Shown: piece by piece, positions 1 through 23,969 of the stretch | Layout: each line of letters begins with the position of its first letter | How positions within the stretch are numbered: the first letter of the stretch is position 1 | Source of the DNA: Escherichia phage HK6 | Reading direction: 5' to 3' (one strand) | DNA length: 64,000 nucleotides | Sequence record: PP724615.1 | Notes under the pieces: model-generated | The model's input: only the letters and a program-made list of their open reading frames with translations | What the model was told of the DNA's origin: nothing | Databases searched by the model: none | Made by a program: the position numbers and the translations under genes

Positions 1-47
1 CAAAATGGCTAGGATTCTGTCAAATCAAATCGTGCTGTTAATAAGTC

Positions 48-56
48 TGTGGATAA
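48..56 (+). promoter_or_regulatory. DnaA-box consensus match TGTGGATAA
   Basis: Exact 9-mer match to the DnaA box consensus; single copy. Confidence 0.3.
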
Positions 57-87
57 CTTAAATAATAGTGTTTCTCACTTCCATTCT

Positions 88-240
88 TAAATGAGAATCA
101 TTATCATTTGCATTCCACTATCTAAATGAGAATCGTTTCACTTCCTGAATAATTTTCATTCCACTTTTTAAATGAGAATCGTTTCACTTTCTAAATGCGA
201 ATTATTATCATTCTCATTCCGCTTTTTAAATGAGAATGAT
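88..240. repeat. Five degenerate direct repeats of TAAATGAGAAT(C/G)
   Basis: Copies near 88, 123, 170, 193 (variant) and 228, interleaved with CATTCCAC(T) motifs. Confidence 0.7.
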
Positions 241-255
241 TCTTATTATCATTCG

Positions 256-279
256 TATTTAGCGCAGGGCAATTGCCCT
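256..279. repeat. Perfect 24-bp palindrome AGCGCAGGGCAATTGCCCTGCGCT followed by TTTT
   Basis: Perfect inverted repeat, GC-rich arms, T-run downstream; hairpin/terminator-like or protein-binding site. Confidence 0.7.
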
Positions 280-286
280 GCGCTTT

Positions 287-511
287 TGTGCAAATCCGAC
301 ATTGCTCCACGGGTGTTACGTGCGGGCGTGTATGTGCAAATCCGACAATTTTTGGTAGTGTGCAAATCCGACCCCAAAATTTTTTATAGTGTGCAAATCC
401 GACAATGAATTTTTCCTAAAAACTCCAGCAATCACGAACTGCGTTCGAATCCTGTGGGGTATGTGCAAATCCGACATGGTTTTTCTAGGATTAAGATGTG
501 CGAATCCGACA
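287..511 (+). repeat. Cluster of six TGTGCAAATCCGAC(A/C) boxes (287, 333, 359, 390, 462, 497)
   Basis: Near-identical 15-mers in direct orientation at irregular spacing; the copy at 497 has one substitution (TGTGCGAATCCGACA). Confidence 0.85.
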
Positions 512-838
512 AGATTTTTGTGACTTCGATTAGATGGTGTGTGATTGTATGAGTTTGGGGAGAAGTTGAGAGATCGAGAGAAACTTGAGGGAACTGCGGG
601 AGGGGCGCATGTTTGGTGCGGGGCACCCGATTTGCGGGGATTTTGGGGAAGAGTTGAGAAGATTTGGGTTAATTTGAGATTAGTGGAGATAAAGTAAAAT
701 TTTATTAGCAAAATGGGGCAAAATAGCTTGACAAGTGAAAATTTCTGTGGCTCTAAAAACTCAGGCAATCATGGGCCTTCGGCCCGAAATAATGCTGCCA
801 TTTTCAGGAGATTATATGTTCCTAAAAACTTAGGCAAT

Positions 839-1037
839 TGTGCAAATCCGACCATAAATTTCTAGAAACACAATGTGCAAATCCGACAGTAATTTCTGAA
901 AAAGTGTTTTCAAAAAATGTCTTCTAGAAATAACCGCCCTCCCCATAACCGCCCTCCCCATAACCGCCCTGTATGGGAAAACCGGCCTAGGATATGTAGC
1001 GTTGGGAGAAACTGCCCTAGAACATGTGCAAATCCGA
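839..1037 (+). repeat. Three further TGTGCAAATCCGA boxes (839, 874, 1025)
   Basis: Same 15-mer family as the 287-511 cluster. Confidence 0.8.
930..971 (+). repeat. Tandem repeat ATAACCGCCCTCCCC x2 plus a partial third copy
   Basis: Head-to-tail 15-bp units at 930-944 and 945-959, partial at 960-971; followed by two GGGARAAACYGCCCTAG copies. Confidence 0.85.
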
Positions 1038-1321
1038 TTTAAAGTTTAGTGTAAACCCTAGAGTTAGTGTTCAACTATTCCTAAAAACTTAGGAGTCTAC
1101 TAGAAAGTGTTGTGCCATCCTAGGCAGAATGGCGGCAACCGGTGTATCATCTTGAATGTAAATTATGTGGTCAAAAGTTTTACCTTTAATTTAAGTATAA
1201 GATCCCCAAAGATTGGAAGAGATGCTCCACCCCTGGGATACGAATTGCGTGAGATGGTACAAAACTTCTTAAGATTTCCCTAGCCCTCCGACAAGCTACG
1301 GGGGAAATAGAAGTTTCCCAT

Positions 1322-1350
1322 CCACCATCCGTATCCGGGTGGATCTCTTT
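1322..1350 (+). terminator. Candidate hairpin plus T-rich tract
   Basis: ATCCACC...GGTGGAT inverted repeat followed by CTCTTTATTC. Confidence 0.3.
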
Positions 1351-1409
1351 ATTCTATGTTATTTCATAGAGTTATTATAACATGCAGAAATCATAACGTC
1401 AAGTAGAGT

Positions 1410-2300
1410 TTATTCATCGAACATGAGATTTCCTTTCATCCCCATCTCCGCATACTCCATGAGTTCTTTGATGGATCTCACAGGGTAATCTACTTTACTA
1501 AAGTTATCATATATCTTGCATGAACTCTCATACAACTCGTTAGGTATCTGCAATTTGTTATCCGTTAGCTTCTCATAACGTGCAGAAGAATTTGTACCGT
1601 CAAACAGAACTGCGATAACTGCGGCGATTTGTTTAGTAAGATCATCTGCTCCTAGAATTATTCTATTAATAGCACTCGTTACTTCATGCTTAGGTTTAGC
1701 AGGTGGAAGGATAGGTTCGAGATCCTTAGGTAAAGGTTCTGTTCCTAGGAATCCTTCTTTTGTGCGGAACCAATAATTATCTAGATCAGATATCGTTTTA
1801 GACTTATTCCAAATAGTGAAGCAGGGTTTATTTCCTTCACGATCTCTGTATTCACGAACTGGAAGGTAATGATCAGGGAATGAATTGAGTGCATCATGCA
1901 TCGGTGAGCCTGTCTTTTTGAAGGACAAACCATACAACTCATTATAATTCATAACTTCATCTTCGTAAACATGAAAATCTTTATATGCTGGAAGATTAAA
2001 CCATTCTTGAAGCGAATGAACTGCAAAACGTTGTGCCCAAGCATGCATCACTAGAACTCTGTATTCTTTTACTTCATCTTTTGGAGAAGTACCTTTAGCT
2101 GTTCTAGCTGAACGAATACAGAACATCTCAACAACACGTTTCTCATTTAAAGAGAGTTCAGAATAACAACGTTCATGGCAACCTTCTAGCATTTCTAGAA
2201 GTTCACGTAGTTTCTCTACATCGACCGGTGGAAAAGGTCTTTCTTCAACTGCGAATTTACCAGTTACACCTTTTGGTTTTCTATTACTATAAAATCCCAT
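1410..2300 (-). CDS. Hypothetical protein (296 aa)
   Basis: Long ORF, ATGA start/stop overlap with downstream gene; no motif recognised. Confidence 0.6.
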   Translation of the reverse strand: MGFYSNRKPKGVTGKFAVEERPFPPVDVEKLRELLEMLEGCHERCYSELSLNEKRVVEMFCIRSARTAKGTSPKDEVKEYRVLVMHAWAQRFAVHSLQEWFNLPAYKDFHVYEDEVMNYNELYGLSFKKTGSPMHDALNSFPDHYLPVREYRDREGNKPCFTIWNKSKTISDLDNYWFRTKEGFLGTEPLPKDLEPILPPAKPKHEVTSAINRIILGADDLTKQIAAVIAVLFDGTNSSARYEKLTDNKLQIPNELYESSCKIYDNFSKVDYPVRSIKELMEYAEMGMKGNLMFDE

Positions 2301-2914
2301 TAATTACCTCTCTTATCTTCATTAAGAGCAGCTCCCAACGCCTCCATAATAGCATCCTCTAAACTTCCATGTTTACCAGGATTATTAAAATGAATAGTAC
2401 AAACAGAACTCCTAGAAACTCCAGCATCCGCAGGTGCTACGCTTCGCATATCAGATTCAAAAGCTTCTTGAGTATGTTTCAACTGTACAGAAGGGCCGTA
2501 ATCTTCCGCAAACTTATATGACTGCGTACTACTTACTACACCCCCACAAGGAACATTGTGCAAATCCGACATTAATTTTTTATCGGAGTTATTCAGCATT
2601 GAGATTGTCCCTGACTGCCACGGATCTCTAATAGTCACTGGAGTACTAGGGCGGTTCACCTCGGTCTTCACGAGTTTGTACCCCGCATCGATTAATGTGT
2701 TAATTAGATTATCAGCTGGGATGCGAGCCTTGCCAAAAATCTTACGAGCATCTTCGAGCTTACCTTCAAGATCTTTACATGCTCTAAGGTCAGTGTGTGC
2801 AAATGTTAGCTTCATAGATTTGAATTGTACAGTAGCAGTTAAATCTTTAAGGCTATAATCCCACGTATTCAGTTCATGATCTGGCACTACTTGAATAGGT
2901 TGTTGTGTAAACAT
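2300..2914 (-). CDS. Hypothetical protein (204 aa)
   Basis: Long ORF in an overlapping gene string; carries an internal TGTGCAAATCCGACA box at 2557-2571. Confidence 0.6.
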   Translation of the reverse strand: MFTQQPIQVVPDHELNTWDYSLKDLTATVQFKSMKLTFAHTDLRACKDLEGKLEDARKIFGKARIPADNLINTLIDAGYKLVKTEVNRPSTPVTIRDPWQSGTISMLNNSDKKLMSDLHNVPCGGVVSSTQSYKFAEDYGPSVQLKHTQEAFESDMRSVAPADAGVSRSSVCTIHFNNPGKHGSLEDAIMEALGAALNEDKRGN

Positions 2915-3099
2915 TATTTATTCTCCAGTTTGTCTAACAGTTTATGGGCTGCTAGATTATATTGTTTAAGTTCACGATTAAGGATTTGGTTCTCACACTT
3001 TAGCTCTAGATTCTTATTATTAAGAATATTGCAGATTAGTAGAAGTGCTAGTATTAGTAACAGAGAACCTACGAGCATTAAAAGAAAAAGAGTTTCCAT
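2914..3099 (-). CDS. Small membrane protein (61 aa)
   Basis: Hydrophobic N-terminal segment; start/stop overlaps with neighbours. Confidence 0.45.
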   Translation of the reverse strand: METLFLLMLVGSLLLILALLLICNILNNKNLELKCENQILNRELKQYNLAAHKLLDKLENK

Positions 3100-3539
3100 T
3101 ATTTTATCTCCATTCTTAACTTTGAAAACTTATTATACCAAACTATATGATTATCGTCAATTACAAATTTATGATAACATGCCGGTACGGTATAAGTTCC
3201 ATAATCCGTGACACGCTGCACAACCTTGTGTGCACACAGTCGACAACCATGCCCTTCTAAATGAGATCTAGCAGTTTGCCAGTAATAACCATCATGGTCT
3301 GGACAGTAGATCTCTACTTGCTGTTGCATTGTTTTATAATTTACACGCTCATACCCAAAGAAAACTCCATGAACTGCAACAGCTTTCTTGATAAATATAA
3401 GGTTTAGTGCTTCTTGTTGAAAGTCGGGATGTAGCTGCTTAATCTTAGTTCTATTAATAGATCCATCCGATTTGATAAACCTATTTATTGGGAAGTTGTT
3501 AGCTTCCTCGATCAGTAATTCATTTACTTTTTCTCTCAT
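3099..3539 (-). CDS. Hypothetical Cys/His-containing protein
   Basis: ORF extends to 3641 in the track; start placed at the internal Met just after the upstream stop (uncertain). Confidence 0.5.
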   Translation of the reverse strand: MREKVNELLIEEANNFPINRFIKSDGSINRTKIKQLHPDFQQEALNLIFIKKAVAVHGVFFGYERVNYKTMQQQVEIYCPDHDGYYWQTARSHLEGHGCRLCAHKVVQRVTDYGTYTVPACYHKFVIDDNHIVWYNKFSKLRMEIK

Positions 3540-3540
3540 A

Positions 3541-3765
3541 TTAGATATTCTCACAGCTAAGGTAGAAACATTCGTAAGCATCACCAGTAAACTCTTTATC
3601 TTGTAGTATACACTTAGCCTGGTCTTCTGGTACTCCAGCATCTAATAATTGTTGTTTACTTGGCTTTTCAGCGAATACCTTTACAAAATATTCACCATCC
3701 TGATTATACTCATTTATATCTCTAGTAAGGACGTATACTTGCATCTGAAGTTCCTTGAAACACAA
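3541..3765 (-). CDS. Hypothetical protein (74 aa)
   Basis: ORF track; start uncertain. Confidence 0.4.
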   Translation of the reverse strand: MCFKELQMQVYVLTRDINEYNQDGEYFVKVFAEKPSKQQLLDAGVPEDQAKCILQDKEFTGDAYECFYLSCENI

Positions 3766-8825: not shown

Positions 8826-9249
8826 AGTTATTAATGGCCTCTAAGAAGTTTTTCATAGTTTTTACGGTTGCGGTGCTTAGATCAAGATTTACACCCAAAC
8901 ACTCGGTTAATGCTTCCTGATAAGGAGCCTTCAATCTGCCTTCTGGGACTTCTACCTTTTTATACTCTTTATTTTTGACCTTTTTAATCATAGTCTCTAG
9001 TACAAGAAGTGGTAATTTAGCACCCTCAATATCAGTACCCAAAAGTTCAGTTAAAATTTTATTAAGATCAAGACGAGTTAACTTTTTGCCCTTAGACATA
9101 GATGCACCTACCTTTGTATCAATAGATTTTTCCGCTTTCTTTTCGAGCTTTTTGTACTCAGGAGAGTCATGATCACGGAGTGCAATGTTTAGCTCGTAAT
9201 GTGGTATACGAAAATGTTCCGCCATTTGAGTATAGAAACGATCAGACAT
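8818..9249 (-). CDS. Hypothetical protein (143 aa)
   Basis: ORF track. Confidence 0.55.
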   Translation of the reverse strand: MSDRFYTQMAEHFRIPHYELNIALRDHDSPEYKKLEKKAEKSIDTKVGASMSKGKKLTRLDLNKILTELLGTDIEGAKLPLLVLETMIKKVKNKEYKKVEVPEGRLKAPYQEALTECLGVNLDLSTATVKTMKNFLEAINNYE

Positions 9250-9324
9250 AATATATACCTCTCTTAACTAATTTATGTATATATTATATAATAACTAGGG
9301 CTAAAAGTCAACTACTTTTTTATC

Positions 9325-9741
9325 TTAATCTACTGCATGTATAAATCTTTTCCTAACTAGATACATAGTTATTGGGTAAATTGAGTACATAAGTATCGGG
9401 GAGAAAAGGGTGAAATACGCTGTAACTCCCCCAGCTAACATCAAAGGTATTAATGCTAGAGTAAGGGCCATAAGAATCATGCCGAATGAAACAGCCAAAG
9501 CTATGGATATAGGATTCTCTAGTTCCATCCATAACCAACAATATTTCGTATCTCTATGGCAATTGCATTTACAAACGCCGAATGAACCCATAATTATATA
9601 CTCTAGTCCGTGAATAACCTTTATTAATAAGCTATTTCGGGTAGTTAATGCAAGGATAGTAAAGACTATCATTAAAACGAATACTACTAGACTTATTTTC
9701 CAGATACCTAGCAGCATCATAGTGAATAGTTCTGCAAACAT
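9325..9741 (-). CDS. Integral membrane protein (138 aa)
   Basis: Multiple hydrophobic segments. Confidence 0.55.
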   Translation of the reverse strand: MFAELFTMMLLGIWKISLVVFVLMIVFTILALTTRNSLLIKVIHGLEYIIMGSFGVCKCNCHRDTKYCWLWMELENPISIALAVSFGMILMALTLALIPLMLAGGVTAYFTLFSPILMYSIYPITMYLVRKRFIHAVD

Positions 9742-9818
9742 GGCTTTCTCCTATCTTCAAAAATTATTAAAGCCCCCTTTGCCTAAAAAGGCGGGAATAT
9801 TCCCGCCTAAGTTATTAA

Positions 9819-10232
9819 TTAAACTAGTTCGACATGACCGCCATCATAGGTACCACGTTTTATTTCATCGTGATAATCTCCCGAAGCATTCCAATCAGCA
9901 CCAAAACGAAGTTTAATGCCTAGTTCTTTACCAGCTTGTTCAAAAGCCTTTTTAACTGCCCAAAATGCTTCTAAATCATTCCAATCAATTTTGCCATTAA
10001 TGTATGGAGCAAAATCAAGGGCATCCCCAGTAATATGCTTGCTTTTACTAGGATCTTTTAAAAATGAAGTACCATTAGCAATATTCTGGGCACTTTGTGC
10101 TACTGTACGAATACCCTGTACGATCGTGAAATCATATGGAGATAATTCTAAAGCTCTACGAGCTACTTTTTGTAGCTCTGGCTTAACGGTAGCTAATTGT
10201 TTTTCGCTATTTTTACCAAATTTAAAACTCAT
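9819..10232 (-). CDS. lys: Endolysin, L-alanyl-D-glutamate peptidase type (137 aa)
   Basis: 137-aa protein matching my recollection of the T5 endolysin sequence; directly downstream of the holin gene. Confidence 0.85.
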   Translation of the reverse strand: MSFKFGKNSEKQLATVKPELQKVARRALELSPYDFTIVQGIRTVAQSAQNIANGTSFLKDPSKSKHITGDALDFAPYINGKIDWNDLEAFWAVKKAFEQAGKELGIKLRFGADWNASGDYHDEIKRGTYDGGHVELV

Positions 10233-10885
10233 ATTGATCTACCTAAAGATCTCTGTTGTGGAGAACAGAGCTTTGTTAAATACTCGTTAAATTTCTCAGA
10301 ATCGGCTGCATCTACAGGATTATCTTTCCAAGCAATACCAATATATCCAGCATAGATATTGTTTAGATTGAAATACGGACAAGTGTATATGTAATTAAAA
10401 GTAACGTTCTTAAACGCAGGTATATTTAACCCCATATATTTATTTACTTTTACACTTAAATCCGATGCGTAGTTAAAGCCGTCTAAGTGACGTCTATATA
10501 GCTCAGACGTCTTATTTACCGCTTTATCGGCCAAGTCAGCCCTATCTAATTGCGCATTGCTTTCCCATGCAATAATGTTAGAATAATCATTAATGGCATC
10601 GGGTTTATACTTGACTACAAAAACAGCATCCGCACCCGTTTGGGAAAAAAGCACCATGCTCTTTTCTCTAGCTACGTTAGGAAAATTACTTATCCTTTGA
10701 GTTTGAACATCCTGTAGAACCGCAGACGTGGAGAAAGTCTTTAAGAATGACATCACCTCACTAGTATTACTAACAAATAAGAAAATAATGACAGCAACTA
10801 AGATAGTTAGCAGACGTTTAAGAAGCGATGCTGGATCTTTCGCTTCTTGGAGCAGTACCGTTAATAATTGTAAGAACTTTTCCAA
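10229..10885 (-). CDS. Holin-like membrane protein (218 aa)
   Basis: N-terminal transmembrane segment; 4-bp overlap with the endolysin start. Confidence 0.65.
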   Translation of the reverse strand: MEKFLQLLTVLLQEAKDPASLLKRLLTILVAVIIFLFVSNTSEVMSFLKTFSTSAVLQDVQTQRISNFPNVAREKSMVLFSQTGADAVFVVKYKPDAINDYSNIIAWESNAQLDRADLADKAVNKTSELYRRHLDGFNYASDLSVKVNKYMGLNIPAFKNVTFNYIYTCPYFNLNNIYAGYIGIAWKDNPVDAADSEKFNEYLTKLCSPQQRSLGRSI

Positions 10886-11653: not shown

Positions 11654-12406
11654 TTATCCAACTAGTGGTTCTAGCTCTAAGTCACAGAAGTTATAAACTT
11701 CTAGTTTAAGGTTATTGATACCATCGAATTTATTAACTAATTCGTGAGTAATATATTTTGCAGGAATACCACTTTCAGATGGATGATCTGATTTAATAGT
11801 GAACTTCTGCTCAGCGGGTACTACATTTACTATCAAAGAATCCATATCTAAATGGTTTGTTTCTCTGAGTAGCTCTCCTTCATTGGGGAATCTAACATCT
11901 GTTATTACGGCGACGTCTGGGTCGTCTTTAGCGATGGATTGCTCCAGAATTATGAGCCAAATGCGTTCATGCACCAGCTGCCTTCCTAGCTCTGTTCCTA
12001 CGAGCTGTAACATTTTTCTCGGAGAAATAAATAAACTATAAAGACCATCTTCTTTATTCTCTGAGATAAGTTGTTGAGGATTAAGGTATTTTTCCTCAAA
12101 AATAGGCCAAACGTACGAGAAGTCTTCAAACTTATCGATACCGTACTTAAACCATACATCTCTGGCTCGCTCCAATTGAGATTGTGTGACCGTAAACCAT
12201 TGGTCAATCTCTTTTCCCCTGCGCTCTCCTAGAAACTCTGGAGTTACACCGAGGATTACGGATGCAAGTTCATAAACGGGCTTAGCAAAACTATAACGAC
12301 GAGAAAAACACGTTGGATACGTGTCATTACACCAATCGATAATTAATTTTGCAACGGTATCTTTTCCCGAACCAGCTTCACCATGTAAACCGACTAATAC
12401 TGACAT
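11654..12406 (-). CDS. dnk: Deoxynucleoside monophosphate kinase (250 aa)
   Basis: P-loop GEAGSGKDT at the N-terminus; size fits phage dNMP kinase. Confidence 0.7.
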   Translation of the reverse strand: MSVLVGLHGEAGSGKDTVAKLIIDWCNDTYPTCFSRRYSFAKPVYELASVILGVTPEFLGERRGKEIDQWFTVTQSQLERARDVWFKYGIDKFEDFSYVWPIFEEKYLNPQQLISENKEDGLYSLFISPRKMLQLVGTELGRQLVHERIWLIILEQSIAKDDPDVAVITDVRFPNEGELLRETNHLDMDSLIVNVVPAEQKFTIKSDHPSESGIPAKYITHELVNKFDGINNLKLEVYNFCDLELEPLVG

Positions 12407-17226: not shown

Positions 17227-17302
17227 TGGTAGTTAGTAGTGGATTTGAACCACTGTAGTCACTCCGTATGAAGGAGGTGCATAACCACTCTGCCAACTAA
17301 CT
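17227..17302 (-). tRNA. tRNA with CAT anticodon (Met-type)
   Basis: T-arm AGTGG-TTCAAAT-CCACT, 7-bp acceptor stem, encoded CCA; anticodon read by eye. Confidence 0.65.
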
Positions 17303-17398
17303 ATTATGTTTTACTAGACTAAGTAAGTATTCTTTATACTCTTTAGACCAATTAGCTTTTTTAAACTTTCCTGGACGCATAGTCTTAATTCCTAAATT

Positions 17399-17476
17399 TG
17401 GTACTCCGGGAGGGATTTAAACCCCCCGATCTCTCGGTTATCAGCCGAGTGCTTTAGATCGCTAAGCTACCGAAGC
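17399..17476 (-). tRNA. tRNA-Ile (GAT)
   Basis: Anticodon arm CTCGG-CTGATAA-CCGAG, acceptor GCTTCGG/CCGGAGT with G-U pairs. Confidence 0.65.
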
Positions 17477-17477
17477 A

Positions 17478-17705
17478 TTAACATTTAATTGCAGAACGTT
17501 TACCATTTCTAGGCGCACCTGGAAGTCGTGCACATTCCGCCATTTTTCTTTTTATTTTGTAGATATTTTCTTGTGTTTGTTCTTCAGGCTTAATACCTGA
17601 AACACTACACCACTGATTACCATCCCATGCAGTAATGATCATAACACCATTACTCATGATCTTTTCTGTGAAAGTAATCCTCATTATAGCAACTCGTCTA
17701 AGCAA
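17478..17705 (-). CDS. Hypothetical protein (75 aa)
   Basis: ORF track. Confidence 0.4.
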   Translation of the reverse strand: MLRRVAIMRITFTEKIMSNGVMIITAWDGNQWCSVSGIKPEEQTQENIYKIKRKMAECARLPGAPRNGKRSAIKC

Positions 17706-17977
17706 GAGGTATATTTAATTTTACCATCTTTATCTACTTTGATTTCGACTTCCGCTCGTGGTACTTGACGAACTACACCATGAATCATCTTATAGCGAAT
17801 GCCTTTAGCTGGTTCATGATCTTTTGGAAATACTTGCTTAACCGTTACTACCTTGAAACCCTCACGCGGTGTTAACACTACTACTTGATCACCTTCTTTG
17901 ATTTTCCAAGAGCTAGGAAATTCATAGGTATAGCGTTGACCACCAGTTTGGAACACAACAGAAAGATAACGTTTCAT
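17684..17977 (-). CDS. Hypothetical protein (97 aa)
   Basis: Promoter module upstream at about 17975-18040. Confidence 0.5.
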   Translation of the reverse strand: MKRYLSVVFQTGGQRYTYEFPSSWKIKEGDQVVVLTPREGFKVVTVKQVFPKDHEPAKGIRYKMIHGVVRQVPRAEVEIKVDKDGKIKYTSCLDELL

Positions 17978-18226
17978 TTGGTTTCCCTCTCATTAATTTA
18001 TATAAATATTATAACAAGAAATAAGAGAGAAAGCAAATGAATTTTTAATAAAGTTTAGTCACTTCATAAACTATACTACGAGATTCTTTATTACGTTCTA
18101 TTAAATTAGCATATGCTTTTTCAGCTTCATTTTTAGTATTAAAGTCTATAACGTGGGAGGTATTAGCTCTGTTTGATTGGCTATACCAGATAACTACTAG
18201 GAGTTTAAACATACTAGTCCTTAAAT

Positions 18227-18313
18227 TGGTGCTGGGCACAGGATTCGAACCTGCAATGGGATTACTCCTCCTGATTACAAATCAGGTGCATTCAACCATT
18301 CTGCCAACCCAGC
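18227..18313 (-). tRNA. tRNA, anticodon TGT by eye, with long variable arm (87 nt)
   Basis: Anticodon arm CCTGA-TTTGTAA-TCAGG; T-arm GCAGG-TTCGAAT-CCTGT; variable-arm hairpin; isotype uncertain. Confidence 0.6.
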
Positions 18314-18478
18314 AGAACCCGTTATTTCAACGGGATTTCTTTTTCAATAACAGGGGACTTATCAGTCATGACTGTCATTGCCATTTGTTGTAGAAATTCA
18401 AAGGTGAAGGCTACACGTTCTTCACCAATCTCTACTTCTACACGTTTCTTTTGTTTGTCGATCTTAACTTTTAGGTTA

Positions 18479-18730
18479 TCAGCCATTAGAGAGTACAGTA
18501 CTGGTAGTTGGCAATACTACAGATGAAGCAACAGTGTTTAAATGCTTTCTCCAGTCTAGGTTAAATTGTTTTCGAAACTCTTCATAAGGTTCTTCTGGAT
18601 AAAAGCTAAAACCTCCTTTCTCATCATTCAGGATAACAGAGCCGTCAGTTTGTTCGTATGCTCGGTATGTTTCTCCAATAACAATAACTCGTTTATCGGT
18701 ACTTTTATTACGAAACTCAAAAACGTGCAT
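18479..18730 (-). CDS. Hypothetical protein (83 aa)
   Basis: ORF track. Confidence 0.45.
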   Translation of the reverse strand: MHVFEFRNKSTDKRVIVIGETYRAYEQTDGSVILNDEKGGFSFYPEEPYEEFRKQFNLDWRKHLNTVASSVVLPTTSTVLSNG

Positions 18731-18746
18731 AATGTTTCCTTAAAGT

Positions 18747-18822
18747 TGGAGCGGCTAGAGGGAATCGAACCCTACTCAGCGAGGCTTGGAAGGCCTGCGA
18801 CACAACCCGTGTGCTTAACCGC
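18747..18822 (-). tRNA. tRNA-Gly (TCC)
   Basis: T-loop TTCGATT; anticodon loop CTTCCAA. Confidence 0.6.
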
Positions 18823-18830
18823 TTATTATT

Positions 18831-18906
18831 TGGCTGGAGAAGGAGGAATCGAACCTACCATTAACGGAGTCAAAGGCCGTTGTGCTAACCGTTACACTAC
18901 TCTCCA
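18831..18906 (-). tRNA. tRNA-Gln (TTG)
   Basis: Acceptor TGGAGAG/TTCTCCA; anticodon loop CTTTGAC; T-loop TTCGATT. Confidence 0.65.
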
Positions 18907-18912
18907 ATTATT

Positions 18913-18988
18913 TGGCTGGGATGCCACGGATCGAACGTGGAACCTTCGGAGTCAGAGGCCGACGATCTGCCAATTGATCTACATCCCA
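18913..18988 (-). tRNA. tRNA-Gln (CTG)
   Basis: Acceptor TGGGATG/CATCCCA; D-stem GATC/GATC; anticodon loop CTCTGAC; T-arm CCACG-TTCGATC-CGTGG. Confidence 0.7.
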
Positions 18989-18997
18989 AGAATGCTA

Positions 18998-19234
18998 TTA
19001 ACTAGATGCTGTTTCTACTGGCTGAGATACAGCCGGCTGTTCTAACGTATCTGGTGCTGATACGGAGAAAAGAGCTTGTAATGCTGCAATATCACGCTCG
19101 TAAGTATCAATACGAGTAGTAAGAGTATCTACCATTTGTTTATGGTAAGCTAAGTTATTCTGAGACTCATCTCGAAGAGTTTGCAGTTCTGCAAGACGTG
19201 TTAACATAATTTCACTAATTAAAGCATTACTCAT
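18998..19234 (-). CDS. Hypothetical coiled-coil protein (78 aa)
   Basis: ORF track. Confidence 0.4.
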   Translation of the reverse strand: MSNALISEIMLTRLAELQTLRDESQNNLAYHKQMVDTLTTRIDTYERDIAALQALFSVSAPDTLEQPAVSQPVETASS

Positions 19235-19424
19235 TTGTTTCTCCTAAGTTTTCCTGTTCTTCTAAACGTTTGCCTTCATGATCTACTCGAATAACTCCGC
19301 ATCCTTCGCAAATCACAACTGCACCATAACCTTCTTTGACCTCAGCTTCTGTAATCAAACCAGAAAGATCACCAGTATCTCTGCCCCACATATCAATGGA
19401 GCATTGTTTGCAGAAATCAGCCAT
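19227..19424 (-). CDS. Small zinc-ribbon-like protein (65 aa)
   Basis: CKQCS and CEGCG Cys pairs. Confidence 0.4.
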   Translation of the reverse strand: MADFCKQCSIDMWGRDTGDLSGLITEAEVKEGYGAVVICEGCGVIRVDHEGKRLEEQENLGETNE

Positions 19425-19451
19425 ATTTTATTTCCTATTTAAGTTAATTTG

Positions 19452-19528
19452 GGGTGGCTAGTGGAATTCGAATCCACATAGGCCTGATTCACAATCAGGA
19501 TCATTAACCAATTATGATATAGCCACAA
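19452..19528 (-). tRNA. tRNA-His (GTG)
   Basis: Anticodon arm CCTGA-TTGTGAA-TCAGG; T-arm GTGGA-TTCGAAT-TCCAC; acceptor GTGGCTA/TAGCCAC. Confidence 0.75.
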
Positions 19529-19892
19529 TTGAAAACTCGCAGGGTTAGCGAAACCTTCCTCAATTAGCATGTTCTAGAATACTAATCAAGTTATCTCCTA
19601 TTGCACGCAGCTCAAGACGAGTACGAATTTTCAATTGTGGCGGCTCTCAGAAACTCTTCTACTCTAGTCTTAGCAGCTTACTCCCGAACGCATGTCGGGG
19701 AAGTCTTACCAAGAGCATCAAATAGCACCGTTACACTTTGAGCCATAGGTGTATCAAGAAGCAGAAGGACTTGAACCTTCACGAGATAGACCATTTATCT
19801 CAGCCGCTTTATGAGGTATGTTGCTGGGAGTGGATGTTCCCCATAAACCTTTTAGGCAGCCCCGTCTACCGATTCCGGCATACTTCAAGATT

Positions 19893-19986
19893 TGGAGGTA
19901 GGTAAGGGGATCGAACCCTTACACCGTATCACTACGATCAACCGATTTCAAGTCGGAGTCCAGCGCCAGCCGTTGGATTGACCTAC
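19893..19986 (-). tRNA. tRNA-Ser (TGA), long variable arm
   Basis: T-arm AAGGG-TTCGATC-CCCTT; acceptor GGTAGGT/ACCTACC; anticodon loop CTTGAAA. Confidence 0.65.
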
Positions 19987-19998
19987 CGTATAAATTGT

Positions 19999-20093
19999 TT
20001 GGCGGAAAAGATGGGAGTTGAACCCATAAGGCGGTATTGCTACCACTCAACCGATTTCCAATCGGGTTTAGTCACCAGTCTATTTGCTTTTCC
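19999..20093 (-). tRNA. tRNA-Ser (GGA), long variable arm
   Basis: T-arm ATGGG-TTCAACT-CCCAT; acceptor GGAAAAG/CTTTTCC; anticodon loop TTGGAAA; 5' end overlaps the stop of the HNH gene by about 14 nt. Confidence 0.6.
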
Positions 20094-20664
20094 GTTGTTC
20101 TGTTAATACTTTTGGGCTTAATCCGGTTAGTTTAGTATATCGTCTACGTAAAGTGGACTCTGATACTTCTAGATCTTTAGCTGCCTTAACCCACCCCATT
20201 AATAAAACCTTTTCAGTTATGTCTTCTAAGGACAATTCTGGTTTTATTAACTTTCCTGTAGGTTTTGGCTTACAATTTGTACATGTTACTGATCTCTGAA
20301 GCATTAGATTTCCACATAAGGGGCAAGGTACTCTACTATCAGACCATCCATTATCTTTATTAGTTTTCTTCTGATGTTCTATTTTTGACAAAACTTGAAG
20401 ATTATCTTTAGATAGATTCAGCCTATCTCTATCCTTGTGATCTACTTCTAATTCAGGGTCAAATAGATTATATAAGTCCCCAAATACATGAGAAATAATT
20501 CGGTGTATAAGTACCGAAGTTTGCTTACCATTTATCTGTAATTTTACAGCAGGGTATCCATCAACTATATATCTTGATAAAATTTTATTAGTAAATGTAG
20601 ATAACACATCCCCTGTTTCATTTACTAAATACCCTGGTGCATCTTTTATTGGTACAAACTGCAT
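20080..20664 (-). CDS. HNH homing endonuclease (194 aa)
   Basis: N-terminal IKDAPGYLVNETGDV (NUMOD4-like), HNH core VDHKDRDRLNLSKDNLQVLSKIEHQKK, C-terminal HTH-like tail. Confidence 0.75.
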   Translation of the reverse strand: MQFVPIKDAPGYLVNETGDVLSTFTNKILSRYIVDGYPAVKLQINGKQTSVLIHRIISHVFGDLYNLFDPELEVDHKDRDRLNLSKDNLQVLSKIEHQKKTNKDNGWSDSRVPCPLCGNLMLQRSVTCTNCKPKPTGKLIKPELSLEDITEKVLLMGWVKAAKDLEVSESTLRRRYTKLTGLSPKVLTEQRKSK

Positions 20665-20680
20665 ACATTACCCTATAAGT

Positions 20681-20765
20681 TGGTGGGGCTAGGGAGACTC
20701 GAACTCCCACGCATTTAAGCTACGGAATCTAAGGCCGTATTGTCTACCAGTTCCAGCATAGCCCC
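20681..20765 (-). tRNA. tRNA-Leu (TAG), long variable arm
   Basis: T-arm GGGAG-TTCGAGT-CTCCC; acceptor GGGGCTA/TAGCCCC; anticodon loop CTTAGAT. Confidence 0.65.
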
Positions 20766-20770
20766 AAATT

Positions 20771-20844
20771 TGGTGGAGAAAGAGGGAGTTGAACCCTCGT
20801 CTTCTGCGTGCAAAGCAGATGTTCTACCATTAAACTATATCCCC
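20771..20844 (-). tRNA. tRNA-Ala (TGC)
   Basis: T-arm GAGGG-TTCAACT-CCCTC; anticodon arm TCTGC-TTTGCAC-GCAGA. Confidence 0.65.
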
Positions 20845-21129
20845 AAATTCTTTAGTTTACTAAGGCTATTAGCTCGGCGTAACTACAGCACCTTCGCTTC
20901 GAGCGGAAGGAACCGCGTCATCTCGCAAACCCGATACACTATTCAGTTGCCGCTGAATCTAGTGGACTAATCTAGAACTTCTCCCGAATCGTAGGGATCG
21001 TGCTTTTTGGCAGCCAGTCCTAGGTCGAGCTAATACCTTAGTGAACTATGATGAGGATTTCTCCTCATCAATTTATATTGATATTATAACAAGAAATTAA
21101 GCATCAAGCAACTGCATTTTTCTTGAAAT

Positions 21130-21209
21130 TGGTAGATCGCCTGGGACTCGAACCCAGAACCTTCCGATTAAAAGTCGGATGCTACTAAACCTATTGAGCT
21201 AGCGATCTA
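21130..21209 (-). tRNA. tRNA-Lys (TTT)
   Basis: Acceptor AGATCGC/GCGATCT; anticodon arm TCCGA-CTTTTAA-TCGGA; T-arm CTGGG-TTCGAGT-CCCAG. Confidence 0.7.
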
Positions 21210-21397
21210 TTAGTAACCATTATACACTTCTTTAATAGAGTGGACTTTTAAGTAAGGGTGATTAGTACTAAACTCTACCATTACTTCATCCCAATTTTTA
21301 CCGTAATGAGCAAGTAAGGATTTTGATGTATTCTTACCTGAACGTTTGTCACTTACTACTAATCGAAATACTTTCATTTCGAAATCCCCTATTAAAA

Positions 21398-21474
21398 TGG
21401 AAGCGGGTGCAGGAATCGAACCTACCTCTTTCTAGCTTATGAGACTAGTGATCTCTACCAGAGATCTAACCCGC
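21398..21474 (-). tRNA. tRNA with CAT anticodon (Met/fMet/Ile2-type)
   Basis: Anticodon arm CTAGT-CTCATAA-GCTAG; T-loop TTCGATT; acceptor pairing imperfect, ends approximate. Confidence 0.5.
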
Positions 21475-21481
21475 AATTGTT

Positions 21482-21557
21482 TGGTCAGTGCGGCAGGACT
21501 CGAACCTGCGACCCGAAGCATCCAAGGCTCCCACGCTACCAACTGCGCTACGCACTG
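21482..21557 (-). tRNA. tRNA-Pro (TGG)
   Basis: Acceptor CAGTGCG/CGCACTG; anticodon loop CTTGGAT; T-arm GCAGG-TTCGAGT-CCTGC. Confidence 0.75.
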
Positions 21558-21566
21558 TTAATTCTT

Positions 21567-21764
21567 TTATTGTGGAGGAATATTAATAATTCGTCCATCT
21601 ACACAATAAACGGTACTAGGAATCGTACTATATATGTAGAAATTCTTTATATTACTCTCTCCGCCACAGAAATTTTTAGCAAATTCATACTCTTTATTAA
21701 TGGTTGAGTCAAATTTAAAACAACCAGTAAGTAGGAATACAGATAGTAATAAAACTTTCTTCAT
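21567..21764 (-). CDS. Small lipoprotein (65 aa)
   Basis: Signal peptide with lipobox LLTGC; promoter module upstream. Confidence 0.5.
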   Translation of the reverse strand: MKKVLLLSVFLLTGCFKFDSTINKEYEFAKNFCGGESNIKNFYIYSTIPSTVYCVDGRIINIPPQ

Positions 21765-22217
21765 TTAGCTTTCCTTCTCTTCACTTTATAAGATATATTA
21801 TACAGAGAATTAAGCAGAATAGCAAATGAATTTTTAATAAATTTACTTATTGTGTAGGCCACCTGGAGGCTACCAACCCCACGGCTGACAAAGAAGTTTG
21901 CGAGACCTCTCTTAAATGCCAGAATAGACCCGCCGATCTATCGGAACCTACATAATAAGTAAACTTTATAGTGTCATTCTAGACAGGACTCGAACCTGTT
22001 ATCACTTGTGCGGACTTACGAGAACCATTCTTTCACTCGAATCGAACGAGCTTCTGCCCTCGCCAAGCTGGTTTCCCCATCAACCACGCTAGAATGTTTG
22101 ATTATTTTCAGTGCAAGAGTCCGAGTCTTGGACACGACCGCTTCGCAAGTACATAGGCTGCTTATCATGAGTCAGCACTTCCGAATTGCTAGCTCCGTGT
22201 TCTGCACTGAAATTTTG

Positions 22218-22565
22218 TTAATTTAACAGTAAAGTACGATCTACTTCACCATTAATTGTTCGGCATTCTTCTGGGATCTCTGGTGTAGCCTTATATTCCC
22301 ACCATTCAGAACCGTCGTATTCACCACGTTCTAACCAAGTTCCATCAGTAAACCACACGTTACCATAAAGCAATTGCCCACCATAACCAGAATCATATTT
22401 AAAGTCTAGATTATTTAGAAAATCTTCAATATCTTTTTCTGTATAACCTACGGGCAATACCCAAACTTCTTTGTCTCCATAATAACCGAATTCTATCTTA
22501 ATACACTTAACTTCAGAATTAGTATTCTTTAGGGCAAGTAACAACTCTTCTTTAGCATTAATCAT
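22218..22565 (-). CDS. Hypothetical protein (115 aa)
   Basis: ORF track. Confidence 0.5.
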   Translation of the reverse strand: MINAKEELLLALKNTNSEVKCIKIEFGYYGDKEVWVLPVGYTEKDIEDFLNNLDFKYDSGYGGQLLYGNVWFTDGTWLERGEYDGSEWWEYKATPEIPEECRTINGEVDRTLLLN

Positions 22566-22591
22566 AGCATATTTCTCGTGCTAGTTTAGTT

Positions 22592-22667
22592 TGGTACACC
22601 CACTAGGACTTGAACCTAGAACCCCCCGCTTAAGAGGCGGTAGCTCTAACCATTGAGCTATGGATGT
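22592..22667 (-). tRNA. tRNA-Lys (CTT) by eye
   Basis: Acceptor ACATCCA/TGGGTGT; anticodon loop CTCTTAA; T-arm CTAGG-TTCAAGT-CCTAG. Confidence 0.55.
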
Positions 22668-22843
22668 ATTAAATTACTTTTTCCAGTTCATCAGCTATGG
22701 CTTTGATTTTTTCAAAGTTTACATCACTTATAATGATACCTTCCAGTGACAGAGATATTCTAGCATTTTTTATAGCAGATTCTTTTATCTGCTCTATCTC
22801 TTCTGGAGTAAACTCCCTACGTTCCATAGCTAACCTACCTTAT

Positions 22844-22920
22844 TTGGCGCGACCGATGGGATTCGAACCCACATTCTCTCCCGTGACAGGGGAGTACCAT
22901 TACCAAACCAGCCCCGGTCG
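22844..22920 (-). tRNA. tRNA-Asp (GTC)
   Basis: Acceptor GCGACCG/CGGTCGC; anticodon arm CTCCC-CTGTCAC-GGGAG; T-loop TTCGAAT. Confidence 0.7.
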
Positions 22921-22930
22921 CATAATTCAT

Positions 22931-23116
22931 TTACTCAGCTTTGAGTTTTTCAATAGCTGCATTAAGTTCCTTAAGAAACTCTTTTCGTACATTAAGACGA
23001 TTAAGACTTACTAGTATATCATGTTTAAGTTCTTCGATGTATTTCTTCTCAACTTCAATATTGTTGATAGTGCTATCACGATGAACTTCTAGCTGTGCAA
23101 TTACATTCTTGGACAT
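22931..23116 (-). CDS. Hypothetical coiled-coil protein (61 aa)
   Basis: ORF track. Confidence 0.35.
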   Translation of the reverse strand: MSKNVIAQLEVHRDSTINNIEVEKKYIEELKHDILVSLNRLNVRKEFLKELNAAIEKLKAE

Positions 23117-23230
23117 GCTTGTTTCCTCAGTTATTAATGAAAATGGTATCTGTGGCTGAATTCGATGTCAGCAATGATAGCTGGTTGGCTACCGGTTTAC
23201 TTAACTCTACACAGAATTTGGCGGGCCGTG

Positions 23231-23313
23231 TAGGATTCGAACCTACGTTGTCTTTCGACACGGATTAACAATCCGCCGCCAAACCGCTTGGCTAACGACC
23301 CTAAATTTATATT
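23231..23313 (-). tRNA. tRNA, anticodon GTT (Asn-type) with unusually long variable arm (83 nt)
   Basis: Acceptor GGGTCGT/ACGGCCC; D-stem GCCA/TGGC; anticodon arm GCGGA-TTGTTAA-TCCGT; 13-nt variable arm; T-arm GTAGG-TTCGAAT-CCTAC. Confidence 0.6.
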
Positions 23314-23453
23314 GCTGACTAGGATTTTCACCTAGACGGAGTTAGCACCGTAGCGTGTAGCGGCATACCTCTCCAAACCGTGCCTCATCTTTCAATTACG
23401 GAGACAGTGTTCCTACGCGTGCCTGAATTGTTTTAACAATTCTTTCAGCAAAT

Positions 23454-23529
23454 TGGACGACCGCATGAGATTTGAACTCACATAAAAAGGATTTGCAATC
23501 CTTCGCCTAAGCCATTCAGCCAACGGTCG
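23454..23529 (-). tRNA. tRNA-Cys (GCA)
   Basis: Anticodon arm AAGGA-TTGCAAA-TCCTT; T-loop TTCAAAT; acceptor CGACCGT/GCGGTCG. Confidence 0.65.
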
Positions 23530-23598
23530 ATTTATCTTATTCTATCATGTTGCTTCTCCAGTTCAATTTATGTAATTATTATACAGAACTTTTGGAAA

Positions 23599-23886: not shown

Positions 23887-23888
23887 AT

Positions 23889-23963
23889 TGGTGCACCCTG
23901 TTCGTATCGAACGAACCTCTCAAGCTCTTCAGGCAAGCGCTAATCCATCTCAGCTAAAGGTGC
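23889..23963 (-). tRNA. tRNA-like, possible Phe (GAA), weak anticodon stem
   Basis: Good acceptor (GCACCTT/AGGGTGC) and T-arm (GTTCG-TTCGATA-CGAAC) but the anticodon stem has two mismatches; may be degenerate. Confidence 0.4.
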
Positions 23964-23969
23964 AAATTT

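What the first reader, a model, noticed from the sequence alone, without database searches (positions are those of the whole stretch)
40..1100. Dense multi-family repeat array at the window start, resembling an injection-stop / terminal-repeat boundary
At least five repeat families are interleaved in about 1 kb with no convincing coding potential: ten TGTGCAAATCCGAC(A) boxes, four CTAAAAACT..GCAAT boxes, two and a half tandem ATAACCGCCCTCCCC units, five TAAATGAGAAT repeats, a perfect 24-bp palindrome and a purine-rich tract (540-720). T5-type genomes are known to carry repeats, palindromes and DnaA boxes near the injection stop signal inside the terminal repeat, so this is the likely identity, but the repeated 15-mer looks like a binding-site array for a specific protein.
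Basis: partly seen in the sequence, partly recalled or inferred. Interest (0 to 1): 0.75.

Follow-up and report, generated by a model that had tools for sequence, protein, structure and literature searches.

The report
T5-type injection-stop repeat region
This is the well-known non-coding repeat block at the inner end of the long terminal repeat of a T5-like phage, where DNA injection pauses; it has been described since 1987, but how it works and what binds its repeated 14-base box are still unknown.

Summary
Window 1-1156 is the orthologue of phage T5 "Repeat Region 3", which carries the annotated injection stop signal (about 84% identity to T5, 94% to the closest phage). All five repeat families, the palindrome and the G-rich tract are present. 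Nine 14-mer boxes lie in the stated range and a tenth lies at 2557. The module straddles the terminal-repeat end: T5, Spc35 and PhageTerm-mapped BF23 all place the right terminus at window 753|754, inside the best-conserved block. The palindrome carries the T5 major-nick consensus. New here: the box core GTGCAAA(T/A)CCGA forms one-orientation arrays at this boundary in Klebsiella and Vibrio T5-like phages whose A1 proteins are only 31-73% identical. Boxes are more conserved than spacers (0.97 against 0.82). This points to a binding-site array for a conserved phage protein. My leading candidate is the pre-early protein A2, which has a predicted Myb/GcrA-like HTH domain; the small terminase subunit (SciB) is the main rival. 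The element is already known, and no binder has been shown. Interest is modest.

The parts
36..56 (-). Pair of DnaA-type boxes, TGTTAATAA-GTC-TGTGGATAA. On the minus strand these read TTATTAACA (variant) and TTATCCACA (consensus), 3 bp apart. This is the tail of the IRD'-spacer-IRC' cluster; the rest of that cluster lies upstream of window position 1.
   Evidence: Read directly. The pairing at a 3-bp gap matches Davison's description. Nearly invariant in the alignment.
79..260 (+). AT-rich repeat block (26-30% GC). It holds five TAAATGAGAAT words (88, 123, 169, 192, 227), a 46-bp tandem (106-196), and interleaved inverted arms (AATGAGAATCATTATCATT type). It corresponds to the T5 DRE/DRC repeats.
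   Evidence: Four 19-mers match the Fur box consensus at 15/19 or better.
261..284 (.). Perfect 24-bp palindrome AGCGCAGGGCAATTGCCCTGCGCT. It carries the T5 major-nick consensus R|GCGCRGG. The minus-strand nick is predicted between 284 and 283. The same motif also lies on the + strand at 261-268.
   Evidence: I14. The T5 nick at 9748/9749 maps to window 283/284. Three T5 nick sites share CCCTGCGC|T. Consensus taken from PMC3517423.
287..510 (+). Left array of six 14-mer boxes, T-GTGCAAATCCGA-C (287, 333, 359, 390, 462, 497), inside the terminal repeat. The first box lies 2 bp after the palindrome.
   Evidence: Boxes are 0.91-0.99 conserved against 0.82 for spacers.
416..432 (+). CTAAAAACTCCAGCAAT box, copy 1 of the tYCTARAAACT family.
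   Evidence: (D6).
520..720 (+). G-rich, C-poor tract with nine G3-4 runs and TTTGGGG-type words. It lies on the strand whose 3' end is the right terminus.
691..840 (.). Near-invariant core spanning the physical right terminus of the genome (cut at 753|754, GGCTC|TAAAAACTCAGGCAAT). It contains TTGACA (728-733), CTAAAAACT boxes at 753 and 822, and a GGGCCTTCGGCCC hairpin (773-785).
   Evidence: Mean identity 0.95 across 20 distinct relatives, and 0.97 within +-30 nt of the cut. Terminus from T5 and Spc35 annotation, eight genome records that end here, and BF23 PhageTerm.
839..1038 (+). Right array of three 14-mer boxes (839, 874, and 1025 with one mismatch). It lies outside the terminal repeat, so it occurs once per genome.
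930..970 (+). ATAACCGCCCTCCCC in 2.7 tandem copies (T5 has 1.7). It shares the TAACCGCC core with a motif 30-50 bp inside the left genome terminus of T5, Javier and phi 3.
1078..1156 (.). Conserved right-hand block containing the fourth CTAAAAACT box (1081). Homology with most relatives stops abruptly at 1156, which marks the right limit of the module.
   Evidence: identity 0.89 in this block, falling to 0.43 after 1156.
2557..2570 (+). Tenth, exact 14-mer box in the same orientation. It lies antisense inside the early gene 2300-2914 (phrog_5271). T5 has the equivalent copy at 12153.

Best explanation
The segment is this phage's copy of T5 Repeat Region 3. That is the non-coding module at the right-hand boundary of the roughly 10-kb terminal repeat, lying between the rightward pre-early genes and the leftward early genes. 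It contains the locus where first-step DNA transfer pauses (iss). This identification is shown here and I rate it about 0.95.

It is a composite protein-loading site rather than a single signal. From left to right it contains:
- host-type operator sites (a DnaA box pair here; more DnaA boxes and a LexA-like box just upstream of the window);
- an AT-rich repeat block;
- a palindrome carrying the major-nick consensus;
- six 14-mer boxes;
- a G-rich tract;
- an almost invariant core in which the genome's right terminus is cut (753|754);
- three more boxes, and a tenth box 1.5 kb further on.

The next steps are inferred. The boxes (T-GTGCAAATCCGA-C) are asymmetric and all point the same way, so I read them as sites for a monomeric sequence-specific DNA-binding domain of a protein conserved throughout Demerecviridae (about 0.6).

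My leading candidate is the pre-early protein A2 (about 0.3-0.35). A2 is made from the DNA that has already entered the cell. In this model it would, with A1, bind the boxes one after another as they reach the cytoplasm. That would give a directional handle, or ratchet, that restarts and carries forward second-step transfer across the repeat boundary into the early region.
For: Identity:
- Alignment to T5, and mapping of the iss, the nick and the repeat end.
- 448 related records.
- The literature description of the region.
- The BF23 PhageTerm terminus maps to the same base.

Binding-site array:
- 10 copies against 0.03 expected.
- Every one of 46 arrays in T5-like genomes has all its copies on one strand.
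- Boxes are 0.97 conserved against 0.82 for spacers, and 0 of 10,000 permutations reach the box value.
- Information is confined to 14-15 bp with uninformative flanks.
- Copy number and spacing turn over (17, 21, 27, 31, 46 bp...) while the word is kept.
- The core persists in Klebsiella (8 copies), Vibrio Javier (7) and Vibrio phi 3 (12) at the same boundary, although A1 is only 73%, 31% and about 35% identical.
- In phi 3 nearly all copies share a one-base shift (T to A). That fits a co-evolving phage protein better than a host factor.

A2 specifically:
- A2 is essential for second-step transfer and is a DNA-binding protein with no known mechanism.
- It is present in all lineages that have the boxes.
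- Its confidently modelled N-domain is a three-helix GcrA/Myb/RAP1/Tc3-type HTH, a type that reads asymmetric sites as a monomer.
- The boxes begin at the mapped pause region, continue past the repeat end, and include a copy 1.5 kb further on. That distribution makes sense for DNA entry and less sense for a terminus cut.
Against: - No binding data exist for any protein.
- A2 and the small terminase subunit have the same phylogenetic distribution, so co-occurrence cannot separate them.
- The pause point is known only to about 1% of the genome length.
- The boxes flank the terminus in three subfamilies, and the first box always abuts the nick palindrome. Both facts fit a packaging protein at least as well.
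- The test for DNA-level constraint on the intragenic tenth box was not significant (p about 0.12).
- The footprinting set is made of fairly close relatives (74-92% identity).
Confidence: 0.5

Rival explanations
1. The boxes are a packaging signal. They would be the recognition array of the small terminase subunit (the T5 sciB product), arranged on both sides of the right-terminus cut in the manner of SPP1 pacL/pacR or lambda cosB. In this reading they also position the late nicking system at the adjacent palindrome. The pause of injection at this locus would then be a secondary consequence, or would be encoded by other parts of the module.
For: - The physical terminus (753|754) lies between the two box groups, in the most conserved block.
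- Boxes flank or contain the repeat end in Javier and phi 3 as well.
- In T5, L013/L038, Javier and phi 3 the first box sits 1-4 bp from a GCGC nick-type palindrome.
- T5's small-terminase homologue is annotated sciB, one of two late genes needed for nicking.
- Unique, non-permuted ends require a sequence-specific signal (established knowledge of terminases).
Against: - No box occurs within 6.5 kb to the right or 1 kb to the left of the other cut site, the left repeat boundary.
- The distance from the array to the terminus is not fixed: about 243 bp in the T5 group, about 70 bp in Javier, and inside the array in phi 3.
- The other major nick sites have no box.
- The conserved tenth box lies 1.8 kb beyond the cut, inside a gene.
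- The direction of packaging is unresolved.
Confidence: 0.25
2. The module is a host-factor landing pad or roadblock. Pre-existing host DNA-binding proteins would load on the entering DNA and tether or block it, and the 14-mer would also be the site of a host protein conserved between Enterobacteria and Vibrio. The candidates are DnaA at the membrane (as Davison proposed), possibly LexA, and Fur.
For: - The pause needs no phage protein synthesis, and it is absent in vitro with FhuA proteoliposomes (Davison).
- A consensus DnaA box pair lies at 36-56, and more lie upstream.
- A 19/20 LexA-consensus palindrome sits about 55 bp upstream of the window start. It is conserved at 18-19/20 in T5, Spc35, Klebsiella and Vibrio phages.
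- Four Fur-like 19-mers match at 15/19 or better, against 0.013 expected.
- The extreme conservation of the box word across hosts would suit a conserved host protein.
Against: - The box matches the DnaA 9-mer only 8/9 at best.
- The base that would complete CACA is the variable first base, and the invariant ATCCGA lies outside a DnaA site.
- I could not match the box to any host operator I know (from memory only, not tested).
- phi 3 shows a lineage-wide T-to-A shift in the box.
- The Fur-like words are replaced by unrelated tandem repeats in the Vibrio phages.
Confidence: 0.12
3. The region is an iteron-type replication origin. DnaA boxes, an AT-rich repeat block and directly repeated iterons would be bound by a phage initiator, as in RK2 oriV.
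For: The formal architecture matches: DnaA boxes, a 26-30% GC repeat block, nine one-orientation repeats in two groups, and a G+C-skewed tract. Davison also notes a resemblance to oriC.
Against: - T5 origins were mapped near the middle of the genome, and the replication genes are not on the first-step DNA (Davison).
- Box spacing is irregular (26-72 bp), not about 22 bp.
- No initiator gene is adjacent.
Confidence: 0.05

Closest known systems
Phage T5 Repeat Region 3 / injection stop signal (NC_005859 misc_feature 9140-10149; Heusterspreute 1987, Wang 2005, Davison 2015 and 2020)
   Same: It is orthologous. It has the same position at the right end of the left terminal repeat and the same order of elements. 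About 84% of bases are identical over window 1-1207. It has the same nine-plus-one 14-mer boxes, the same nick site and the same terminus.
   Different: - The window begins inside the module, so about 320 bp of T5's annotated iss are missing. The missing part includes the LexA-like palindrome and most DnaA boxes.
- The palindrome is perfect here, whereas T5's left arm reads GAGC.
- There are 2.7 rather than 1.7 ATAACCGCCCTCCCC units.
- Several 9-17-nt indels lie in the AT-rich block and the spacers.
Terminase recognition sites that flank a cut: SPP1 pacL-pacC-pacR and lambda cosB (R sites) beside cosN (comparison from established knowledge)
   Same: Short repeated protein sites lie in non-coding DNA on both sides of, or next to, the point where the genome end is made, with bent or A/T-tract DNA nearby.
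   Different: - No terminase binding has been shown here.
- The geometry relative to the cut varies between lineages.
- The other genome end has no boxes.
- The repeat here is 10 kb long, so the two cuts are far apart.
Iteron-type origins and partition sites: RK2 oriV, and R1 parC with two groups of direct repeats (comparison from established knowledge)
   Same: Arrays of one-orientation 11-22-bp repeats in two groups, DnaA boxes, and an AT-rich block.
   Different: Spacing is irregular, there is no adjacent initiator or partition gene, and T5 origins are mapped elsewhere.
Phage T7 transcription-driven genome entry (comparison from established knowledge)
   Same: A short leading segment enters first. 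The rest then requires proteins acting on specific sites in the DNA that has already entered or is just entering.
   Different: In T7 the sites are promoters and the motor is RNA polymerase. Here the sites are not promoter-like, and the required proteins are A1 and A2.

Membership tests
T5 Repeat Region 3 / injection stop locus | Lies at the right end of the long terminal repeat, between the pre-early and early genes | tested here: met
   The T5, Spc35 and BF23 repeat ends all map to window 753|754. Leftward early-gene homologues begin at 1410.
T5 Repeat Region 3 / injection stop locus | Sequence homology to T5 9194-10409, with the same order of DRE/DRC repeats, palindrome, DRD boxes and DRA units | tested here: met
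   Alignment A1. 84% identity to T5 over window 1-1207. Box positions correspond one to one.
T5 Repeat Region 3 / injection stop locus | Paired DnaA-type boxes of the IRD'-spacer-IRC' unit | tested here: inconclusive
   One pair (36-56) is present. The rest of the unit lies upstream of window position 1 and cannot be seen.
T5 Repeat Region 3 / injection stop locus | DNA transfer actually pauses here in vivo | not testable with these tools
   Needs blender or qPCR transfer assays on this phage.
Terminase recognition (pac/cos-type) site | Contains the physical genome terminus | tested here: met
   The BF23 PhageTerm end and the T5 record end map to window 753. Eight genome records end at 751-754.
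Terminase recognition (pac/cos-type) site | The repeated sites keep a fixed geometry relative to the cut, and occur at each cut | tested here: not met
   The distance is 243 bp in the T5 group, about 70 bp in Javier, and the cut is inside the array in phi 3. There are no boxes near the left repeat boundary of T5.
Terminase recognition (pac/cos-type) site | Bound by the small terminase subunit | not testable with these tools
   The T5 small-terminase homologue (sciB) is known only from annotation.
DnaA box (as a reading of the 14-mer) | 9-mer TT(A/T)TNCACA | tested here: not met
   The reverse complement ATTTGCACA matches 8/9 at best. The base that completes CACA is the variable first box base (T 0.78). 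The invariant ATCCGA lies outside the 9-mer.
Iteron-type replication origin | Regularly spaced iterons next to an initiator gene, with origin activity | tested here: not met
   Spacings are 46, 26, 31, 72, 35, 342, 35 and 151 bp. The neighbouring genes have no known function. Origin activity itself is not testable here.
Fur box (as a reading of the AT-rich repeats) | 19-mer GATAATGATAATCATTATC | tested here: inconclusive
   Four sites match at 15-16/19, against 0.013 expected, with none elsewhere in the 64 kb. They are copies of one repeat unit and are not kept in the Vibrio phages.
Known structured RNA (Rfam) or tRNA-derived element | Match to a covariance model, or to a tRNA T-arm | tested here: not met
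   No Rfam match comes near its gathering score. C[AG]AATCCGA occurs only in the ten boxes and in none of the 22 tRNA genes.

The most novel reading that the evidence does not exclude
The 14-mer GTGCAAA(T/A)CCGA array would be the long-sought functional cis element of two-step DNA injection. In this reading it is the specific, directional loading site for the pre-early protein A2 (a Myb/GcrA-like HTH protein), conserved from E. coli to Vibrio T5-like phages. Successive A2/A1 binding to the entering boxes would restart transfer and ratchet the DNA across the terminal-repeat boundary.
Probability: 0.3. Interest if true: 0.7.

Novelty: already known. Interest (0 to 1): 0.33.

Why it matters
Two-step DNA injection by T5 has been known since the 1960s, yet neither the stop nor the restart has a mechanism. 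[quoted passage not shown]

The element itself is not new. What this comparison adds is a sharper target:
- a single asymmetric 12-14-bp word that is the most deeply conserved part of the module across three subfamilies;
- a terminus placed exactly inside the best-conserved block;
- a short list of candidate binders, A2 and SciB/TerS, that can be tested with simple binding assays and with the T5 engineering methods that now exist.

Tried and rejected
- **Coding.** The ORFs 316-768 (minus) and 172-408 (plus) have no PHROG match, and relatives carry non-3n indels. Rejected.
- **Structured RNA.** No credible Rfam match.
- **tRNA T-arm origin of the box.** The word is absent from all 22 tRNA genes and there is no 5' stem. 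Rejected.
- **Box read as a DnaA box.** It fails on the variable first base and on the invariant ATCCGA that lies outside the 9-mer.
- **Host operators by eye.** I compared the box with the CRP, IHF, FadR, sigma-54, sigma-28 and dif/XerC consensus sequences as I remember them. None fitted. This is recollection, not a test.
- **Co-occurrence test to separate A2 from the small terminase subunit.** Both are restricted to the same roughly 900 Demerecviridae records. Uninformative.
- **Synonymous-site test on the intragenic tenth box.** Third positions are conserved, but 12% of comparable windows are as well. Inconclusive.
- **DRA-type motif as a shared signal at both repeat boundaries.** A TAACCGCC core lies 30-50 bp inside the left terminus in three lineages. 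No matching copy was found outside the right boundary in the Vibrio phages. Left open.
- **Nick sites as the reason for the boxes.** The other major nick sites have no box. Rejected as a general rule.
- **Davison 2015.** The paper could not be retrieved.

Full report
**What is there**

- The 14-mer TGTGCAAATCCGAC occurs ten times in the 64-kb window at one mismatch or fewer, all on the + strand, against 0.03 expected.
- Nine copies lie at 287-1038. The tenth is at 2557, outside the stated range.
- The other elements are all confirmed:
  - TAAATGAGAAT words: four exact and one with a single mismatch.
  - Four CTAAAAACT boxes, the fourth lacking ..GCAAT.
  - The 2.7-copy ATAACCGCCCTCCCC tandem.
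  - The perfect 24-bp palindrome.
- The "purine-rich" tract is more precisely G-rich and C-poor (68 G, 14 C). It has the highest GC skew in the window.
- The longest ORFs match no phage protein family. Relatives differ by indels that are not multiples of three. No Rfam family matches.

**What it is**

The window comes from a T5-like phage (Demerecviridae).

- 448 phage records match this segment. The best is Stokescottia at 93.6%.
- The segment aligns colinearly with T5 9463-10607.
- T5's own record annotates "injection stop signal (iss)" at 9140-10149, a major single-chain interruption at 9748/9749, and the end of the left terminal repeat at 10219.
- These map to window <1-683, 283/284 and 753|754 respectively.
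- The region is known in the literature as T5 Repeat Region 3. It is described as containing nine DRD repeats; DRE, DRC and DRA repeats; many palindromes; and DnaA boxes. It is highly conserved among T5-like phages and has no established mechanism.

**Anatomy relative to the genome end**

- The T5 record ends with ...TTGACAAGTGAAAATTTCTGTGGCTC, which is identical to window 729-753.
- Spc35's annotated repeat end maps to the same column.
- Eight genome records carrying two repeats stop at window 751-754.
- BF23's repeat was determined from sequencing reads with PhageTerm. Its end is ...GTGGATC|TAAAAACTCAGGCAAT, the same base.
- One record (Kenya-K20) annotates a different end, equivalent to window 331. 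Davison's text implies 10139 for T5. I regard these as annotation differences.

The module therefore straddles the repeat boundary.

- Positions 1-753 are present at both genome ends; 754-1156 are present once.
- The cut falls at the first base of a CTAAAAACT..GGCAAT box.
- It lies within the best-conserved stretch of the whole region. Identity is 0.95 over 691-840 and 0.97 within 30 nt of the cut, in 20 distinct relatives.
- Conservation ends abruptly at 1156.

**The palindrome**

- T5's three annotated major nicks share CCCTGCGC|T. This agrees with the published consensus R/GCGCRGG.
- The window has four such sites on the nicked (minus) strand: 277-284, 12218, 28429 and 45789.
- Only one occurrence in 64 kb lies on the + strand. 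It is the left arm of this palindrome.
- In T5 that left arm is degenerate (GAGC).
- Whether a perfect palindrome is nicked on both strands is unknown.

**The 14-mer**

- In 46 arrays from T5-like genomes, all copies in a genome point the same way.
- Across 300 distinct copies the information is confined to T-GTGCAAATCCGA-C-a. There is a weak T-tract at +18 to +20, and the flanks carry no information.
- Boxes are more conserved than the spacers between them (0.969 against 0.819). None of 10,000 random placements does as well.
- Divergent genomes keep the word but change copy number and spacing, including regular 17- and 27-bp tandems.

The word and its position survive far beyond detectable DNA homology:

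| Phage | A1 identity to T5 | Boxes | Placement |
|---|---|---|---|
| Klebsiella VAC51 (Sugarlandvirus) | 73% | 8 | same boundary |
| Vibrio phage Javier (Thalassavirus) | 31% | 7 | 5 inside the repeat, 2 outside |
| Vibrio phage phi 3 | about 35% | 12 | annotated repeat end inside the array |

- In phi 3 most copies read GTGCAAAACCGA.
- In all these lineages the order of elements is the same:
  1. a CTGT-N8-ACAG palindrome;
  2. paired DnaA boxes;
  3. a lineage-specific tandem block;
  4. a GCGC palindrome directly abutting the first box;
  5. the box array;
  6. a G-rich tract;
  7. the terminus.

**Who binds it**

The site is asymmetric and one-directional, which suggests a monomeric recognition domain. 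Two phage proteins are conserved in exactly the lineages that carry the boxes.

*A2.*
- It is essential for second-step transfer and is known to bind DNA. Its mechanism is unknown.
- A model built from 19 homologues has mean pLDDT 84.
- These matches are weak, but they fit recognition of an asymmetric site.

*The small terminase subunit.*
- It is annotated sciB in T5. sciB is one of two late genes needed for nicking.
- In its favour, the boxes flank the terminus and abut the nick site.
- Against it:
  - there are no boxes at the other cut site;
  - the geometry relative to the cut varies;
  - the other nick sites lack boxes;
  - a conserved box lies 1.8 kb away inside a gene.

On balance I favour A2 by a small margin. 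I rate a phage-encoded binder at about 0.6, A2 at about 0.3-0.35, and terminase at about 0.25.

*A host protein.* This is less likely. The DnaA reading fails, and phi 3 shows a lineage-wide base shift in the box.

**Proposed mechanism**

Shown:
- identity;
- position;
- the terminus;
- the nick motif;
- selection on the boxes;
- family-wide conservation.

Inferred:
1. The left part of the module carries host-type operators (DnaA, LexA-like, Fur-like) and is where the leading DNA stalls.
2. A2, made from the DNA that has already entered, binds the boxes together with A1 as they emerge.
3. The one-way array, which continues past the repeat end, gives a directional handle that restarts and sustains transfer.
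4. The invariant core is the terminase cut site, used later in infection.

**Comparison and novelty**

- The element is an orthologue of a described element, so it is already known.
- Formally it resembles terminase sites that flank a cut (SPP1 pac, lambda cosB) and iteron origins or partition sites.
- It fails defining features of both where I could test them (see the membership table).
- Interest is modest. The repeats have been in print since 1987.
- The family-wide conservation of one word, together with the two named candidate binders, makes a long-standing question directly testable.

Noticed in passing
L002:2910-2929 (T5 9409-9428), about 55 bp upstream of window position 1; also L001:2947, L128:574, L127:514 and 3940: TACTGTATAAATATACAGTA matches the E. 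coli LexA SOS-box consensus at 19/20. It is kept at 18-19/20 in Spc35, Klebsiella VAC51 and Vibrio phage Javier, and phi 3 has CACTGTATAAATATACAGTG. Davison's paper does not mention it, and my literature search did not find it.
   Followed up: partly
window 87-105, 93-111, 197-215, 232-250: Four 19-mers match the Fur box consensus GATAATGATAATCATTATC at 15-16/19. There are none elsewhere in the 64 kb, and 0.013 are expected from shuffles of the region. T5's receptor FhuA is Fur-regulated. The Vibrio phages have unrelated tandem repeats at this position.
   Followed up: partly
window 261-284: Because the palindrome is perfect, the nick consensus R|GCGCRGG is present on both strands here. The + strand copy at 261-268 is the only one on that strand in 64 kb. 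T5's left arm is degenerate. Nicks on both strands would lie 22 nt apart.
   Followed up: partly
window 416, 753, 822, 1081, 2412, 12229 (all + strand): There are six tYCTARAAACTYNRG boxes. The one at 753 begins exactly at the genome terminus. The one at 12229 lies 4 nt after the predicted major nick at 12218-12225. T5 has the same arrangement at 22336. Two of six boxes coincide with strand breaks, and I have no explanation.
   Followed up: partly
window 1374-1402 (minus strand): A near-consensus sigma-70 promoter (TTGACG, 17 nt, TATAAT, with an upstream TG; 11/12). It lies just downstream of the stop codon of gene 1410-2300 and fires leftward into about 250 bp that contain no ORF, toward the repeat module. 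It is conserved in T5 and Spc35. It could drive a small RNA.
   Followed up: no
window 1325-1342 (+ strand): A terminator-like hairpin, CCATCCGTATCCGGGTGG followed by ATCTCTTTAT. It lies in the variable stretch between the module and the first early gene.
   Followed up: no
window 1156|1157: A sharp homology break. Most relatives match up to 1156 and then diverge completely, with identity falling from 0.89 to 0.43. This looks like a mosaic boundary.
   Followed up: no
window 2557-2570, inside gene 2300-2914 (minus strand): The intragenic tenth box encodes S-D-L-H on the opposite strand. Its only variable base in 12 distinct homologues is the same A/T position that varies in the intergenic arrays. 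Here that change is non-synonymous, Leu to Met.
   Followed up: yes
L005:24-52 (T5 left end); the left ends of Javier (L130, reverse complement) and phi 3 (L131:37-66): A conserved motif, AGTCT..T(A/T)ACCGCC, lies 30-50 bp inside the left genome terminus in three subfamilies. Its TAACCGCC core is shared with the window's ATAACCGCCCTCCCC units at 930-970.
   Followed up: partly
window 554-669; Javier and phi 3 equivalents: TTTGGGG-type words cluster next to the right terminus on the strand whose 3' end is that terminus. There are 3 in 241 nt against 0.2 expected, and 11 in phi 3. This is the same strand polarity as telomeric G-strands.
   Followed up: partly
L004 (Kenya-K20 OQ291032, record end): The annotated DTR of this record ends at the equivalent of window 331, not 753. 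This conflicts with T5, Spc35 and BF23. Davison's text also implies 10139 rather than 10219 for T5.
   Followed up: partly
window 1-1400, compared with OR896820 (Stokescottia) and MZ571830 (VAC51): Some records annotate several small 'hypothetical proteins' across this non-coding module: five in Stokescottia and seven in VAC51. These are probably over-calls.
   Followed up: no
window 36352-36365: TGTGGAAAACCGAC, a two-mismatch relative of the box, lies on the + strand far from the array.
   Followed up: no
window 3099-3641 (minus strand): An ORF with an HNH-endonuclease-like segment (phrog_4605, with weaker matches to endonuclease families) lies among the first early genes.
   Followed up: no
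window 17227-29536 (minus strand): A cluster of 22 tRNA genes, as in T5.
   Followed up: no
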